From Octopus vulgaris (lineage: Eukaryota): a DNA stretch of 64,000 nucleotides. Shown here piece by piece: positions 2,517 through 39,650 of the stretch; the first letter of the stretch is position 1, and every line of letters starts with the position of its first letter. The translations under genes were made by a program, and so were the position numbers. The DNA is taken from positions 38,378,001 to 38,442,000 of the forward strand of contig OX597815.1 in NCBI GenBank assembly GCA_951406725.2, read 5' to 3'. The notes under the pieces were generated by a model. The model did not search any database. It was not told the DNA's origin and saw only the letters and a list, made by a program, of their open reading frames with translations.

Positions 2517-5087
2517 GCATGGAGAAAATACAGTGGACGTAAAAGTGGGAGCTTTAAACTATGTGTGAATTAAGGTCAACAGTTTCAACAAAAACCTGAA
2601 AAGAGTTGATAAACAATAGACAGTACATAATAGAACTAGTTTAAAATTTATTTACACAAAGTCGATCAATTAAACGAAAGAAACAAAAAAAAAACAGTAT
2701 TATAAAACACACTAATTATTTCGATGTGTTTGTGTGTGTGTGTGTCTATGTGTATGTGTGTGCGTGATTGTATTCTCCTAATTGGAATTCCCTTTTTTCT
2801 TTTGATTTGTTTGTTTTAATTGAGTGTCCATACGTGTTCAAATGAATACTTCAATGAGAAGGAAAACAAGTTCTGCAATAACAAAACATATGAAAATTTG
2901 CCAACAGTAGCGCGTAGCAATCACCTGTCTCAAGTACATAAATATTGTAATAAGTAGTAGGTTTGCAGCTGAAGCAAGCACTTATTTCAAAATATGATGA
3001 TGTTAGAACTGCTCAAAGATTGCTCTGAGTCTGCTTTAAAATTCTTTGTCATATTCAACTGTGATTCATTATCGAAGATTTTTTCATGATAGCTTTTATA
3101 AAAAAGAAAACGTAGGCGATGAAATAGTCTCTTGGTTCAGCTATGCATTGTTCTGTTATATACGTAAATCGTATTCATATTCATGGGTCTGAATGTGTGT
3201 ATACACAACGCTATTGTGTACCAATTTGTATATGCGTTTGCCTATGTGCAAAGTTACTACTATGATTCCACATATATGAGGAAGTGAATTAGAAAGCATT
3301 GATTGAGGACGTTTAGAACAATCAGCAAAGGAAAGTAACACCAATAAACTCAGTTAAAATGAGTTTTATAAAAATAATAAAAATAGATCAAAATACAGAT
3401 TGCAATGTATTGGGTATTTAATGCTATTGAGTATTTAAAGTCAAGAAAGCAGCAGATAAATTCCGTCAACGGAATAGTACATCAGAGGAATGCCTTGTCT
3501 CTTTAAAGCAAGTAAGTTAGGGGCTTACATATGTAATACGGAGAATTAAAATAAATAATTTAATTGGGATCCTTTTTTCAGTTTGTACACACAGACTCAC
3601 TATAGGTTGGACTGAGATGTAAAACAAAGAAGGGAAATAATACTCATAGAAGAAGTGAACTTAAATATCTGCAAAATAAGACGGCGCAGACGGGAGTGAA
3701 TTTTCTCTTCAATTCTAACTGATGAATGCAACAGACATGTTACGGCATTATTAGATCTCTTCAGTAAGGCATATTCACATCACTTGGCAAAGCGTAGGAA
3801 CGAGCAGTATGTATCCGCAAAGAGAATGAAATTAACCTCACTATGACTGCCGGCGAAAATTTCTAGCTACTCAAAACTGCTGCACCATAAACGCGTAAGA
3901 GTTCATTTTGACCCATGACAGTATAAAAACTGTTCTTGAAGGAGCATCGCTGCAGTAATAGAAATGTCTATAGAACTTTATTATTAGAAATTATTATTAT
4001 TATTAGAAATGTAGCGGTTACGAAGAAGAATAAATATTTCCACAAGATATTTGCATTCTGTTTTAATGCATTATTTTCTACATAAAAGAATCATGTTGTA
4101 ATAAAGTTCTGTAGACATTTTTGCCGGAGGTTTTAAGGGAATTGTCACATATTTGGGTCTGATACTAAGAAGAAAAAGCAGCCTAAACACCGGCAGGCTG
4201 CAACTCAGAATAGTGAGAAACCAAAGTAAATACAGTTCAGTATTGTTTATCATTTCTTTCACCTCTCAAGAATTAAAGTCCATATGAGCTCAATACATGC
4301 TTGAGCTGTTTGTGCATTTATGTAGCTGCTGATGCTATTGTTATTATGCAGCCCTGTGGCTCCTTGTTAATTCGGATGTGAAATCTTTTGCTATTGTTTA
4401 TAACAACTTGTTTGAAAGCACGTGTAGCAATTTCACTTCGTTTCTTTCCTTTATGTTTTATTTCGATGCCATTATCCGTTAAATCCCGTGTGGAAATCAA
4501 ATGAATCATTAACTAAGAGACATTCACTTAATGCTGTTTCTACTACATTGAACCACTCTCATTAAGTTTGTCTTAATGCAAGGCACTTCCTGATCCAACG
4601 AATCATAAAATTACCTTATCTCTTCTCTCCAGACAAATTTTAATAAAATTCGTTTTTCGTAACAAAATATCAGTTCACATTGAGAAAGATGAAAATATGA
4701 ATGTAGATTTCCATAATATTATACTCACCTAATTTTTTTTATTAATAGTGAATAATAAAGTTCTAATTGTTCATTGTAGTATTTCCTCTATTCTCAATCA
4801 TATTTATGTAAACTTTTCCCATATTAAAATTGTAAATTTAGATCTCTTAAGGCACTATGTTTGCTTTCTCTCATATTTCAAAACTATTCACAAACGACGT
4901 AGTGTAATTATCATCAAATTATTGGAATAATCGTACCGGAAGAAGATTATTTTCTGTTGACAGAAGGAAATAAAATAGAAAATGATATATAATTCGTTAT
5001 TCTTGTCATTTCTATGAATATATTCTAATTTCCTACAACTGGTTTTAATCATCCTGTGGTGTCCATGCAGATGCAGCATAATGTAAG

Positions 5088-5846: not shown

Positions 5847-5880
5847 TGTCATGATAAGCGAAAGCGAAACCGGTCGAAAA
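5847..5880 (+). ncRNA. Degenerate minimal hammerhead motif
   Basis: tgtc-ATGATAA-gc gaaa gc-GAAA-ccgg-TC-gaaa; same ACCGGT palindromic stem III as the Neptune-like pLTR motifs; core position 3 mutated. Confidence 0.5.
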
Positions 5881-9900: not shown

Positions 9901-10078
9901 AGAAAATAGTAAAGTGTGAAAAAACGACAGAAGGCTTAAATGTTAAAAAATATATATATTTGTGTCAAAATGTCTGGAGAATATTGGAAAAATTTTTTTC
10001 CTTTCCTTAAAATGACATAATTATAAAATTTTTAGAGAAATTACCGGTTTCGCGTGTATCCTACACAATAACCACTTA

Positions 10079-10906
10079 ATGTTTGACAATACATTTTACC
10101 GTCAAAAATCCGGAATTGCTATGGGTACAAGGGGAGCACCAGTCATTGCGAACTTAACAATGGGATACATGGAAATAATCATTTACCAGGAATCTCTATC
10201 AATCTTTGGAAACTCCCTCTCTCAATACATAAAAGAGAATTGGAAACGATTCCTAGACGATTGTTTCATTCTCTGGAATGAAAACATAGATAAACTCCTA
10301 AAATTTAAAAACCTATTGAACAGCATAAACCCAAATATACAGTTCACAATGGAATACAACCAAAAGGAGCTCCCGTTCTTGGATATACTAATTAAAAAAA
10401 TTAACCTTAAAATAGAAACAGACATTTTTTACAAAGCCACAGACGCCAAACAATACCTTCTTTTTAATTCATGCCACCCAAGACACACTAAAACAAACAT
10501 CCCCTTCAACCTTGCAAGAAGGATATGCACAATAGTGTCAGAACAAAATACCAGGAACTTTAGACTGCAAGAACTCAAAAACACCCTAATTGATAGACAT
10601 TACCCAGCTCAACTCATAGAGGATGGGATCAGACCTGCAACAGAAATCAACATAGAAACTTTAAGAAAAGTTCAACACAACAACACACCTTCCCCGAAAA
10701 TACTACCTTACATATCTACATACAACCCCAGAAACAAAGAAGCCTTCACCATCATCACCCAGAATTTACCAATACTTCATAAAAACCCAAAATTAAAGGA
10801 AATTCTAAACATACACCAAATCATTAAAAGCTACAAACAGCCTAAATCACTTAAAAGATTCTCACAAAGGCAAAATTGTCTTCTAAAATTACGGATGCAA
10901 AAGTAA
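10079..10906 (+). pseudogene. Penelope-like reverse transcriptase, C-terminal part
   Basis: QKSGIAMGTRGAP, WKRFLDDCF, LPFLDILI, YKATD..YL.FNSCHP; frameshift near 10855 before the EN. Confidence 0.92.
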
Positions 10907-11328
10907 AAAAATGTGGTAGATCGAACTGTGCAACATGTCCTAACCTATTGGAAGGATCAGAATTCTTCTTTAAAGAGGGACAGAAATTCAAGATCAAATC
11001 TAACTTTACTTGTGCCTCTGAAAACATAATTTATGTTATTAAATGCTCGGGCTGCCACCAAGACTACGTGGGTTCAACGGGACTATCACTCAGGCGTAGA
11101 TGCACACTGCATCGACAACAGATTGCATTCCCAGAATATAGAATGATACCTTTTAGTGAGCACATTGAGAAATGCGCAAAGCAAATACTGCCACAATTTT
11201 TAATCTTCCCATTTTACCAATGTGCTTTCGGATCATCAACACAAATGAGACTGAACAAGGAAACATGCTTCATTGAAAAGTACAAACCCAGACTCAACCA
11301 TCCGAACATACTGACACAGAGAAATTAA
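10876..11328 (+). pseudogene. GIY-YIG endonuclease domain with Cys-rich linker (Neptune-like)
   Basis: CGRSNCATC...NIIYVIKCSGCHQDYVGSTG..RR...H...E..FI...KPRLN. Confidence 0.9.
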
Positions 11329-11466
11329 CAAGGAAAAGGGAGAAAGAAATTTTTAAGCGATTATCTCCCTTACACCGGAAGAAATCACTCACTACCTCCC
11401 CTTATTTAGAAATCTCCTGTTAATAAACACAACGATAACTCCATGCAATATAAACATAACGTCACA

Positions 11467-11504
11467 AGAAATTTGAAAAGCTACACGCGAAACCGGTAAT
11501 TTCT
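11467..11504 (+). ncRNA. Minimal type I hammerhead, U3-A8 core variant
   Basis: agaaat-TTGAAAA-gc tacac gc-GAAA-ccgg-TA-atttct; 6-bp stem I. Confidence 0.75.
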
Positions 11505-11769
11505 CTAAAAATTTTATAATTATGTCATTTTAAGGAAAGGAAAAAAATATTTCCAATATTCTCCAGACATTATGACACAAATATATATATTTTTTAACAT
11601 TTAAGCCTTCTGTCGTTTTTTCACACTTTACTATTTTCTTATATATTCACCCACGTGCTTTACCAAACAAACTTTCTTATTTATGTATATATATATATAT
11701 ACATATATATGTATACATACCTATATACGCATATATATACGCATATATACATATATATATATATATTTA

Positions 11770-27867: not shown

Positions 27868-27906
27868 TCAGTACCGGTTTCAGCCTTTGAGACTTTTTCA
27901 ACTGTA
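27868..27906 (-). ncRNA. Minimal hammerhead, U3-A8 variant
   Basis: Minus strand: cag-TTGAAAA-agtc tcaaa ggct-GAAA-ccgg-TA-ctg. Confidence 0.72.
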
Positions 27907-28104
27907 TGGAAAACAATTAAATTTTGGAAAAATTAAATGAAAAGTTTTTTTAAAAGAATATTTGCATAGTATTCAAATACAAGGGGCATTTTCCTTGTTT
28001 CTGCCTGTCTCTGTCTCTCTCGTTTACTCTTGTGGGTTCGAGGTCGTTGTGAATTCTTGGCAGAGAAGAAGAAGAAGAAGAAGAAGAAGAAGAAGAAGAA
28101 GAAG

Positions 28105-28136
<32 letters not shown>

Positions 28137-28269
28137 GGAGGAGGAGAAGAAGAAGAAGAAGAAGAAGAAGAAGAAGAAGAAGAAGAAGAAGAAGAAGAAG
28201 AAGGAGAAGAAGAAGAAGAAGATTTGATTATTTTGTCTGTGGCTATACTGCATGCGTTACTTATTTTCT

Positions 28270-29851
28270 CACTAAACAAAGTCCCTACTCCTAATGACAT
28301 CAAATTGAGACCTATAATAGCAGGTCCCGCATGCGAAACCCACTTCTCAGTAACTGCTTAGATACCCTCTTAAAACCATTCTTCAAGCATGTCAAAAGCT
28401 ACATAAGGAACGACCTGGATATGCTCAATCACCTTCTTGAAACAATAAACAGAAGCTCCCTACTAGTATCCTTCGATTTAGTCAACTTCTATTCCTATAT
28501 CCCCCAACAACCTAGGTATAAAAGCAATTCAGTTCTGGTTAGAGAATTACGTCAACGAAGTTCCACATCGCATCAGAAAAGAATTCGTGATAGAAGGGCT
28601 AAAATTCATCTTGGAGAATAACTACTTTGTCTTCAAAAAGACAACTTCTATCGACAAAAATCGGGGACTGCGATGGGTACGAGAATAGCCCCCTCCTTTG
28701 CTAACCTAGTCATGGGATATCTTGAAATTAGTCTTTATCGTAAGGTTGCAGAAACATACGGCAGCCCATTCTCCCTCTACATAGAAAATAACTGGAAGAC
28801 ATATCGGAATGACTGTTTCATTCTTTGGCATGAAAGTATAGAGAGACTTAAATAATTCCAAGCACTTATAAATGGACTTGACGTAAATATTCAATTCACG
28901 ATGGAATATACCCATCAACAACTCCCTTTCCTCGATATCCTCATTAAGAAATCTAATAACGCAATAGAAACAGATATATACTATACCCACGGAGTCCAAG
29001 CAATATCAATCGTTCAACTCATGCCACCCCAGACACACCAAAATGAATATCCCCTTCAACCTAGCAAAAAGAATATGTACTATAGTTTCTAATGCAAGCA
29101 CCAGAGACACACGACTACATGAACTAAAGGATACACTCATCACAAGGAACTACCCACCTACAACAATTGACATATGCTTTTAATGTGCCCTACAACTCAA
29201 CATCCACGAACTCAAACATCCCAAATTAAAGACGGATTTACAACCAAAAGCCCTACTATACATTTCTACACACAACCCTCTTCACAATGAAGCCTTCGAC
29301 ACCAGCCTACAAAACATTCCACTTCTAAAAAAGGACCACAGAATGAACTTCATCCTCCAAACACATGCCATCATAAAAAGCAAGAGACAGCCCAAATCTT
29401 TGAAAAGTCTCCTAACACGCTCCTAATACGCTCCTAACAGTCTCCTAATACGCTCACCAACACAGAAGCCGTCAGTAAAAAAATGCATAAGACACAACTG
29501 TGGGAAATGCGTCAATTTAATTGAGGGATCAGAGTTCTCCTTCAAACAAGGACAACGTTTCACAGTGAAAAGTAGCTTCACATGTGTTTCGGAGAACCTG
29601 ATATACGCACTAACCTGCTCTGGGTGTCAAGAGCAATACATAGGCCAAACAAAAAACGAATGGCACTGCACAAATCCCAGATCAAAATTCCCCCAAACAG
29701 AAAAATAGCATTCAGCCAATACACTGACGTTTGTGCCAATACCAAAAATCCAAGCTTCAGAATTTTTGTCCCCTCTATCAGTTCACGGAGGATACATGTA
29801 GCCCACGAATTAGTTGAGACTCTCTTTGTTACAAAATACAGACCCCTTTAG
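28270..29851 (+). pseudogene. Penelope RT/GIY-YIG polyprotein pseudogene
   Basis: Fragmented ORFs at 28331, 28673, 28901 and 29582, homologous to 10079-11328. Confidence 0.88.
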
Positions 29852-30283
29852 ATCGCATCTACAACAAACGACATATCTACTACGACCTTAGAATAACACA
29901 AACACACACACACAAATATTAAAAATGATACATTCAAGAGATTCACACGAATTCATTAAAAAGCAGTCTCAATCACTGCTATAATCCATAACGAATCAGT
30001 TTTACGTCACGTGGCCATTTAATATCCTACAACTATCATACCACCTGCATACTTTATTATTCTCTCTTCTCTTTCCCCTTCTTCTTCTTCGTCCTCTTCT
30101 TCCCCGCCACCTACTTCCTTACTTTACTATTATTGTTGTTTAGAATAACACCTACACAAATATTATAAACAATACATTCAAAAGAGATGTCTCAAGAATT
30201 CAATCACTACTATCACCAACAACAAGTCATTTAACATCCTACTACTATCATGGTACTCCCGCATTCTTCTTCTTCTTCTTCTT

Positions 30284-30406
<123 letters not shown>

Positions 30407-30582
30407 GTTGTTGTTATTATTATTATTAATAACAACAAGAATTCACAACGACCTCGAACCCACAAGAGTAAACAAGAGAGACAGAGATGTGCAGAAACAA
30501 CGAAAATGCCCCTTGTATTTGAATACTGTGCAAATATTCTTTGAAAAAAACTTTTCCCAAAATTTAATTGTGTTCCATACTT

Positions 30583-30620
30583 ACAGTTGAAAAAGTCTCA
30601 ATGAGTGAAACCGGTACTGA
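30583..30620 (+). ncRNA. Minimal hammerhead, U3-A8 variant (stem II partly decayed)
   Basis: cag-TTGAAAA-agtctcaatgagt-GAAA-ccgg-TA-ctg. Confidence 0.6.
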
Positions 30621-38585: not shown

Positions 38586-38669
38586 TGGCCTCCTTAAAAT
38601 CCATTAAAACTCATCCACCACCGAAACCTGTAAACTCTCCTCTGACATCCACATCAATATCCAGGCACC

Positions 38670-39650
38670 GGTGGACTGAAAGCTAAGACCTATCATAGCT
38701 GGCATCTCCTGCGAAACACACCGCTTAAGCAATTTCCTGGACATTCTTTTGAAACCTTACCTCAGTGACATCAAAAGTTTCTTTAGAGATGATCTTGACA
38801 TGCACAAGCACCTCTCGAAAACAACAACGAAGAGGCATACTTGGTTTCCTTTGCTGTTATCAACCTCTATACCAATATCTCACATGAATATGATATTGAA
38901 GCAATTGATTTATGACTGGAGAAACACTCAGAAGCATTTCCTAACTTCATTAGTAAGACCTTCATTATGGAATCATTCAAGTTCATTCTGACAAACAATT
39001 ACTTCCTGTTCGAAAATACATACTACCGTCAAAACTGTGGTATCGCAATTAGTACCAAAGCTGCATCAGTCCTTGCCAACCTCATTATGGGCTTCTTCGA
39101 ACAATCACTCTATTGGATATCACGCCAGAAATTTAAACACCTTTTCCACATCTAGTTAATGGAAAACTGGAAAAGATACCTAGATTATTGTTTCATCATA
39201 TGGAAAGAATCTTATGAAAAACTTCTGGAATTCGAAACCACACTTAGCAACATACATCCCAACATTCAATTCACTATGGAATTCAGCAAACATCATCTCC
39301 CTTTTCTTGATCGCCTAATTATAAAAACAACCAAACCACAACCGACATCTACCACAAACCTACAGACTCACAATAATACCTCCTCTTCAGTTTATGCCAC
39401 CCAAAACACACCAAGATAAATATCCCCTTCAACTTAGCTAAAAGTATTTGCACCATTGTCTCTGACACAACCACACGAGAAATACGCCTTCAAGACCTCA
39501 AAACAAACACACTATTACAACGCCAATATCCCTCCACACTCATAGACTAAGGAAAAAAACGTGCCAAGGAACTCGACAAGAACATACTGAAAACCATCCA
39601 ACACAGTAACACACCCAACCTCAAAATACTTCCATACATTTCCACCCACA
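38670..39650 (+). pseudogene. Neptune-like Penelope RT fragment
   Basis: LRPIIAGISCETHRLSNFLDILLKPYL, YRQNCGIA, NWKRYLDYCF, LPFLD. Confidence 0.85.

What the first reader, a model, noticed from the sequence alone, without database searches (positions are those of the whole stretch)
11467..11504. Compensatory U3-A8 hammerhead core (TTGAAAA) shared by two different Neptune-like PLE families
Seen: agaaat-TTGAAAA-gc(tacac)gc-GAAA-ccgg-TA-atttct here, and cag-TTGAAAA-agtc(tcaaa)ggct-GAAA-ccgg-TA-ctg at 27868-27906(-) and 30583-30620(+). Stems I and II and the surrounding pLTRs differ, but TTGAAAA, GAAA and ACCGGTA are fixed. Established: the HHR core is C3UGANG8A, C3-G8 is a tertiary Watson-Crick pair, and PLE pLTRs carry minimal type I HHRs with palindromic stem III thought to cleave as dimers. 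Inference: U3-A8 is a selected covariation defining a ribozyme lineage that a CUGANGA pattern search would miss. U3-A8 variants exist elsewhere, but I cannot say whether they are reported for cephalopod PLEs.
Basis: partly seen in the sequence, partly recalled or inferred. Interest (0 to 1): 0.8.

Follow-up and report, generated by a model that had tools for sequence, protein, structure and literature searches.

The report
Retroelement hammerhead swaps its core pair
A Penelope-like jumping gene carries a small RNA motif predicted to cut itself, whose U-A core pair is already in print, but related families in this genome use all four possible Watson-Crick pairs at that site, which likely means the cutting fold is under selection.

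Summary
The motif is real: a minimal type I hammerhead in the terminal repeat (pLTR) of a Neptune-like Penelope element, core UUGAAAA in 30 of 30 family copies found by downstream sequence alone. The two 'other family' sites are the two ends of one insertion. U3-A8 in Penelope hammerheads is published (Schistosoma, PMC4209133, the same UUGAAAA core), and this scan met it in other genomes. What is added: among motifs with the ACCGGU stem III, this genome holds U3-A8 (6,201), A3-U8 (1,632), G3-C8 (154) and C3-G8 (134). Near-identical subfamilies differ only by G-C/A-U or C-G/U-A, and A3-U8 arose twice. A fourth window site (5847-5879) belongs to an A3-U8 family. Canonical cores still dominate overall (22,898 with the short stem III). 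I found no report of natural A3-U8 or G3-C8 Penelope hammerheads, but key papers were unreadable. Cleavage is untested; no insertion junction falls at the cut site, and one C3-A8 mismatch subfamily spread. Verdict: known variant, with a modestly new covariation set.

The parts
11467..11504 (+). Minimal type I hammerhead motif, family A: 6-bp stem I, U3-A8 core, 2-bp stem II, palindromic stem III, predicted cut after 11498
   Evidence: Sequence; family state in 30 of 30 copies
11473..11479 (+). Core box UUGAAAA (U3 = 11473, A8 = 11478)
   Evidence: Sequence
11492..11497 (+). ACCGGU palindrome; cannot close a stable stem III alone, predicted to give a 6-bp intermolecular stem III in a dimer
   Evidence: Sequence; cofold energies
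10059..11328 (+). 5'-truncated, frameshifted ORF of family A: end of the reverse transcriptase, C-x4-C-x2-C linker, GIY-YIG endonuclease with CCHH residues
   Evidence: ORFs, weak Pfam GIY-YIG E 0.0077 below cut-off, full-length relative L261
9894..10058 (-). Inverted, 5'-truncated pLTR arm matching 11482-11646 (99%); holds only the 3' half of the hammerhead
   Evidence: Inverted repeat I7
11499..11682 (+). pLTR downstream of the predicted cut, with a tail of about 36 nt that the inverted arm lacks, then (TA)n
27868..27906 (-). Family-B hammerhead (U3-A8), inverted end of one insertion
28640..29845 (+). Decayed RT, linker and GIY-YIG remnant of the family-B insertion, about 50-58% identical in protein to family A
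   Evidence: tblastn
30583..30620 (+). Family-B hammerhead (U3-A8), forward end of the same insertion; stem II damaged in this copy
5847..5879 (+). Family-C hammerhead, family core A3-U8; this copy has decayed to A3/A8 with a stem I mismatch

Best explanation
The motif is a minimal type I hammerhead in the terminal repeat of a Neptune-like Penelope retroelement, and it is predicted to cut the element's RNA slowly after GUA (11498) when two copies pair through their ACCGGU palindromes, with U3-A8 likely filling the role of the usual C3-G8 pair. Shown: anatomy, family-wide fixation, position just 3' of the ORF stop, direct tandems 3,994 nt apart in a full-length element, and repeated swapping of the 3:8 pair among all four Watson-Crick types. 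From established knowledge: 3:8 is a tertiary pair of the active fold whose identity can be swapped, and such motifs cut as dimers. Inferred: selection acts on the master elements to keep the catalytic fold; swaps likely pass through short-lived mismatch states; in families A and B U3 could instead pair with A17 and damp the rate. The window copy itself is a truncated single motif and is probably inert.
For: Family fixation: A 30 of 30, B 28 of 30, C (A3-U8) 26 of 30. Whole-genome exact counts with 3 and 8 fixed, control in brackets: U-A 6,201 (40), A-U 1,632 (301), G-C 154 (43), C-G 134 (19); both free 10,131 (1,338), so 8,121 of 10,131 are Watson-Crick. With 3 and 8 free inside one family, hand counts of the first 100 listed: family F (227 in all) G-C 40, A-U 53, other 7 (script check on the first 30: 8, 18, 4); family D/H (381 in all) C-G 42, U-A 52, C/A 6. 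An F G-C copy and an F A-U copy align end to end over 230 nt with both core sites changed. A3-U8 rows as one clade are rejected (AU test p 7e-75, 21 rows). Stem I differs in sequence between families yet stays complementary. The double-hammerhead fold is the lowest-energy dimer for C, F(A-U) and H examples and within 1.1-2.2 kcal/mol of it for the other six of nine. C3G/G8C partly rescues cleavage in a Penelope hammerhead (PMC11167929, passage); U3-A8 is active in vitro (PMC3088659 section 8).
Against: No cleavage data. None of the 30 family-A loci chosen by downstream sequence has a 5' junction at the cut site 11498/11499. A C3/A8 mismatch subfamily is dispersed in the genome (6 of 100 listed, 5 with one loop sequence), so a paired 3:8 is not strictly needed to spread. 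In vitro the anole element inserts without hammerhead cleavage and no reads ended at its cut site (PMC11167929); minimal hammerheads cut weakly even as dimers (PMC4209133). Stem II is only 2 bp in A and C. Copies are not independent; the number of independent swaps is about three to five. The A-U count includes at least one family without stems (L270-272).
Confidence: 0.7

Rival explanations
1. The hammerhead fold is conserved, but for binding or RNA pairing (protein recognition, dimer formation, reverse-transcriptase pausing) rather than for cutting in the cell.
For: No junction at the cut site in 30 loci, while several inversion junctions lie at 11449-11482, just 5' of or inside the motif; cleavage dispensable in vitro for the anole element; U3-A17 pairing is predicted 1.4-2.2 kcal/mol more stable per dimer than the active form in A and B.
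Against: The invariant letters (UGA, A9, GAAA, U16.1, never G17 in family states seen) and the 3:8 pair are the ones that the catalytic conformation needs (established knowledge); other stems vary freely.
Confidence: 0.15
2. The ribozyme is optional cargo: mutation (CpG decay at C7-G8, A+T bias) breaks the pair, mismatch lineages still transpose, and pairing is restored only for the sake of the small RNA's own replication.
For: C3/A8 subfamily with C7 in D/H shares its loop with U3-A8 copies; Naiad elements thrive without canonical hammerheads and the authors raise parasitism by hammerheads (PMC8557442, passage).
Against: Mismatch states are 7 of 100 and 6 of 100 listed copies; all ORF-bearing family states that I could define are paired; G3-C8 runs against an A+T bias.
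Confidence: 0.13
3. The motif is a chance match in A+T-rich repeats.
For: One abundant repeat matches the loose pattern with no stem I or II (CTGATTA family, 12 of the first 100 rows; L235-239).
Against: Shuffles give 0.005 per window; 6,201 against 40 in the control; fixed position 110-750 nt after the endonuclease in most ORF-bearing copies; stems covary.
Confidence: 0.02

Closest known systems
Minimal hammerheads of metazoan Penelope-like elements, U3-A8 variant of Schistosoma mansoni Cercyon elements (Cervera and De la Pena 2014, PMC4209133)
   Same: Type I, in pLTRs, palindromic stem III, U3-A8 core; the row S. mansoni(4) of Fig. S3 has the same UUGAAAA box.
   Different: 6-nt ACCGGU palindrome and short stem II here; A3-U8 and G3-C8 families, absent from the 56 rows of Fig. 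S3; Neptune-like host element.
Natural core variants of hammerheads (Perreault et al. 2011, PMC3088659)
   Same: Natural C3-G8 to U3-A8 covariation; 2-bp stem II is common.
   Different: The section read names only U3-A8 for this pair; not Penelope-associated.
Hammerhead of the anole Poseidon element PAc (Frangieh et al. 2024, PMC11167929)
   Same: Penelope pLTR hammerhead whose 3:8 pair can be swapped (engineered G3-C8 partly active); inverted arm and tail structure.
   Different: Natural core is C3-G8 and overlaps the ORF start; Poseidon clade; the swap is engineered, here natural.
Non-LTR retrozymes of animals (Cervera and De la Pena 2020, PMC7229834; bioRxiv 10.64898/2026.07.22.740005)
   Same: Family D/H: 357-360-nt tandem repeats, one type I hammerhead per unit, no ORF over 72 codons.
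   Different: Core toggles between C3-G8, C3/A8 and U3-A8; circular RNA not shown.

Membership tests
Type I hammerhead ribozyme (minimal form) | Core N3-UGA-N-N8-A and GAAA...UH in order | tested here: met
Type I hammerhead ribozyme (minimal form) | Watson-Crick pair between positions 3 and 8 | tested here: met
   U-A in A and B; covariation across families
Type I hammerhead ribozyme (minimal form) | Stems I and II, with G10.1-C11.1 | tested here: met
   A: 6-7 bp and 2 bp with G10.1-C11.1; B: 3 bp and 4-5 bp starting A-U
Type I hammerhead ribozyme (minimal form) | Palindromic stem III allowing a double hammerhead | tested here: met
   ACCGGU; dimer energies. Computed, not observed.
Type I hammerhead ribozyme (minimal form) | Self-cleavage after N17 | not testable with these tools
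   No assay; only contig-type runs were offered, which cannot show RNA ends
Type I hammerhead ribozyme (minimal form) | Match to an Rfam hammerhead model | tested here: inconclusive
   None among the 150 rows shown of 208; 58 weaker rows were not shown
Endonuclease-positive Penelope-like element | RT followed by C-terminal GIY-YIG with CCHH | tested here: met
   811-codon frame in L261; RVT_1 E 8e-7, 29.4 bits against cut-off 29.6; GIY-YIG weak
Endonuclease-positive Penelope-like element | pLTR tandems, inverted 5'-truncated arm, tail at one end | tested here: met
Neptune clade | CX2-5CxxC linker between RT and endonuclease | tested here: met
   CGRSNCATC in A; shared with Nematis (PMC8557442)
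Neptune clade | Insertion into (TA)n microsatellites | tested here: met
   Most family-A ends run into TA/TG repeats
Neptune clade | RT phylogeny with reference Neptune and Nematis proteins | not tested
   No reference sequences were on hand; the label stays 'Neptune-like'
Non-LTR retrozyme (family D/H only) | 170-400-nt ORF-less tandem unit with one hammerhead | tested here: met
   359-nt unit
Non-LTR retrozyme (family D/H only) | Linear and circular RNA monomers | not tested
   No RNA look-up was made for this family

The most novel reading that the evidence does not exclude
This genome holds the first natural set in which retroelement hammerheads cycle the catalytic 3:8 pair through all four Watson-Crick types, with natural A3-U8 and G3-C8 families and a mismatch intermediate caught spreading; the swaps concentrate in motifs with the longer ACCGGU dimer stem, which would buffer weaker cores, and U3 with A17 would act as a built-in brake. 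It would be direct evolutionary evidence that Penelope elements need hammerhead catalysis in vivo.
Probability: 0.35. Interest if true: 0.62.

Novelty: new variant of a known kind. Interest (0 to 1): 0.4.

Why it matters
What hammerheads do for Penelope elements is open: they cut weakly in vitro and were dispensable in the one reconstituted system. Repeated compensated swaps at a pair that belongs to the active fold argue for selection on that fold and supply near-isogenic natural pairs (F: G-C against A-U; D/H: C-G, C/A, U-A) for a direct test. Practically, CUGANGA descriptors miss about 8,000 exact-match motifs in this genome, which could bear on claims that some Penelope families lack hammerheads. 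The U3-A8 variant alone is not new.

Tried and rejected
Rfam scan: only microsatellite-driven miRNA and snoRNA hits among the rows shown. Repeat finder: swamped by microsatellites, useful only for the inverted arm. Junction pile-up at the cut site: none. RNA: no RNA holder on record, only contig-type runs; laying four of them showed cover across the motif and, among the 40 of 52 difference rows shown, none at 11473 or 11478, but cannot show ends or expression. 'U3-A8 is the dominant core of this genome': rejected, canonical cores with the short palindrome number 22,898, control 772. Swapped cores in that short-palindrome class: 1,692 against 2,781 in the control, so not above background, though one recurring UUGAAAA motif there is unresolved (its pattern fixes CG, allows YR). 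The CTGATTA repeat (C3/U8) and the L270-272 repeat were rejected as hammerheads for lack of stems. One insertion whose two arms read U3-A8 and A3-U8 (L155) was set aside as chance among thousands of copies. A full IQ-TREE run timed out; trees rest on FastTree with 38 rows and a quick IQ-TREE with 21 of those rows. Left out of the trees: near-duplicate family-A rows, most rows under about 120 residues, and rows whose upstream ORF seemed to belong to a neighbour or was rearranged (L153, L248, L055 and others). L234 (U3-A8, 176 residues) was in the 38-row tree, where it fell with family C at weak support, and was not in the 21-row tree; it may be a further origin. Lunse et al. 2017 and Przybilski and Hammann 2007 could not be read. 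No protein-homologue search was run.

Full report
Observation. At 11467-11504 the parse is stem I agaaat/atttct, U3 at 11473, A8 at 11478, a 2-bp stem II, GAAA, the palindrome ACCGGT (11492-11497) and A17 at 11498. A loose pattern with positions 3 and 8 free occurs 4 times in the window and 0.005 times on average in 200 shuffles. The 30583 copy has gagt where the family has gact. The 27868 and 30583 sites are the two ends of one insertion, with RT and endonuclease remnants between them.

The element. Site A ends a 5'-truncated, frameshifted ORF (10059-11328) with the RT end, a C-x4-C-x2-C linker and a GIY-YIG domain bearing CCHH residues, preceded by an inverted arm matching 11482-11646. A full-length relative, L261, has two motifs in direct tandem 3,994 nt apart around an 811-codon RT-endonuclease frame. 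Linker, CCHH, tail, inverted arm and (TA)n targets fit Neptune or Nematis as described in PMC8557442 (passages); no reference phylogeny was run, so 'Neptune-like' stands. The window copy has one whole motif and is probably inert.

Family states. U3-A8 is in 30 of 30 family-A copies found with sequence downstream of the cut only and 28 of 30 family-B copies. These are the 30 best-scoring of 1,227 and 2,475 candidates, so they lean to young copies. A fourth window site, 5847-5879, belongs to family C with A3-U8 in 26 of 30 copies.

Genome-wide counts. Exact patterns ending GAAACCGGTH gave U3-A8 6,201 (control 40), A3-U8 1,632 (301), G3-C8 154 (43), C3-G8 134 (19) and, with both sites free, 10,131 (1,338). 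Much of the unpaired remainder is one repeat without stems I and II (12 of the first 100 rows). These counts cover the ACCGGU class only: canonical cores with the 4-nt palindrome number 22,898 (control 772), and doubly changed cores in that class are not above control (1,692 against 2,781).

Swaps between close relatives. With 3 and 8 free inside family F, the first 100 of 227 matches read G-C 40, A-U 53, G-U 1, A-C 2, G-G 2, C-C 1, U-C 1 (hand count; the first 30 checked by script). In family D/H, a 359-nt ORF-less tandem unit like an animal retrozyme, the first 100 of 381 read C-G 42, U-A 52, C/A 6 (hand count). Five of the six C/A copies share a loop with U-A copies, which suggests a path by CpG decay at C7-G8 and then C3 to U (inference). 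Copies are not independent, so the Fisher values overstate the case; the evidence is three to five independent swaps. On a 21-row protein tree the U3-A8 ORF families form one side of a branch (SH-aLRT 92), and A3-U8 arises twice, in C and inside F (AU p 7e-75). The tree is unrooted and built from decayed copies; L234 may be an exception.

Mechanism. A monomer cannot close a stable stem III; two copies can swap strands into a double hammerhead with a 6-bp ACCGGU helix (computed). By established knowledge 3:8 is a tertiary pair of the active fold; an engineered C3G/G8C swap partly restores a Penelope hammerhead (PMC11167929, passage). In A and B, U3 can also pair with A17, predicted 1.4-2.2 kcal/mol more stable per dimer, like the inactive C3-G17 trap discussed in PMC3884650 (passages); I infer a damped rate. 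Against a needed cut: no junction at 11498/11499 in 30 loci, the spread of a mismatch subfamily, weak in vitro rates (PMC4209133) and dispensability in the anole system.

What is known. PMC4209133 (parts 1-2 of 4 of the text; supplement parts 1-2 of 3) reports U3-A8 in Schistosoma Cercyon elements, about 1,300 hits, and its 56-row alignment has UUGAAAA but no A3-U8 or G3-C8 row; figure logos were only partly legible. PMC3088659 (section 8) reports natural U3-A8. PMC7229834, PMC6765202, PMC6155905, PMC10085705 and bioRxiv 10.64898/2026.07.22.740005 were seen as passages only. Searches for natural A3-U8 or G3-C8 and for cephalopod hammerheads found none, but the library lacks Lunse 2017 and Przybilski and Hammann 2007. 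Earlier notes of this scan record U3-A8 Penelope hammerheads in other genomes and 3:8 swaps in phage arrays; they are unchecked leads.

Verdict. The finding as stated is a new member of a published variant. The four-way covariation in one genome is a modest, testable addition. Interest 0.4.

Noticed in passing
L261 minus strand 3452-3570; L262, L263: Family A has an ORF1 overlapping the RT frame in the -1 frame at a U UUU UUA heptamer followed by a predicted hairpin: a likely ribosomal frameshift, a feature noted for some Penelope types. ORF1 has no Pfam match and ends at a stop before this site in L261.
   Followed up: partly
L092-L118, L221-L224 (G000, e.g. C1:20002278-20004542): Retrozyme-like 357-360-nt tandem family with a GC-rich type I hammerhead, in direct and inverted arrays; 381 exact core matches.
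   Followed up: partly
window 11449-11512 equivalents in L192, L200, L206, L210, L218 and the window: Several short family-A insertions have fold-back junctions just 5' of or inside the hammerhead rather than at the cut site; an earlier scan note saw the like in a shark-like genome.
   Followed up: partly
window 29900-30430 and 28060-28220: Family B carries internal (TTC)n/(TTA)n tracts between its ORF and the hammerhead.
   Followed up: no
window 38600-39650: A third decayed Penelope-like RT remnant without endonuclease or hammerhead nearby.
   Followed up: no
L235-L239: A very uniform repeat that mimics the hammerhead boxes (C3/U8, GAAACCGGTC) but has no stems; a source of false hits.
   Followed up: partly
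G000, e.g. C1:3635743-3635767: A recurring UUGAAAA motif with the short ACGU palindrome; either a U3-A8 subfamily of the canonical class or a misparse of decayed canonical copies.
   Followed up: no
L155 1370-1530: One insertion whose two inverted arms read U3-A8 and A3-U8; treated as chance.
   Followed up: partly
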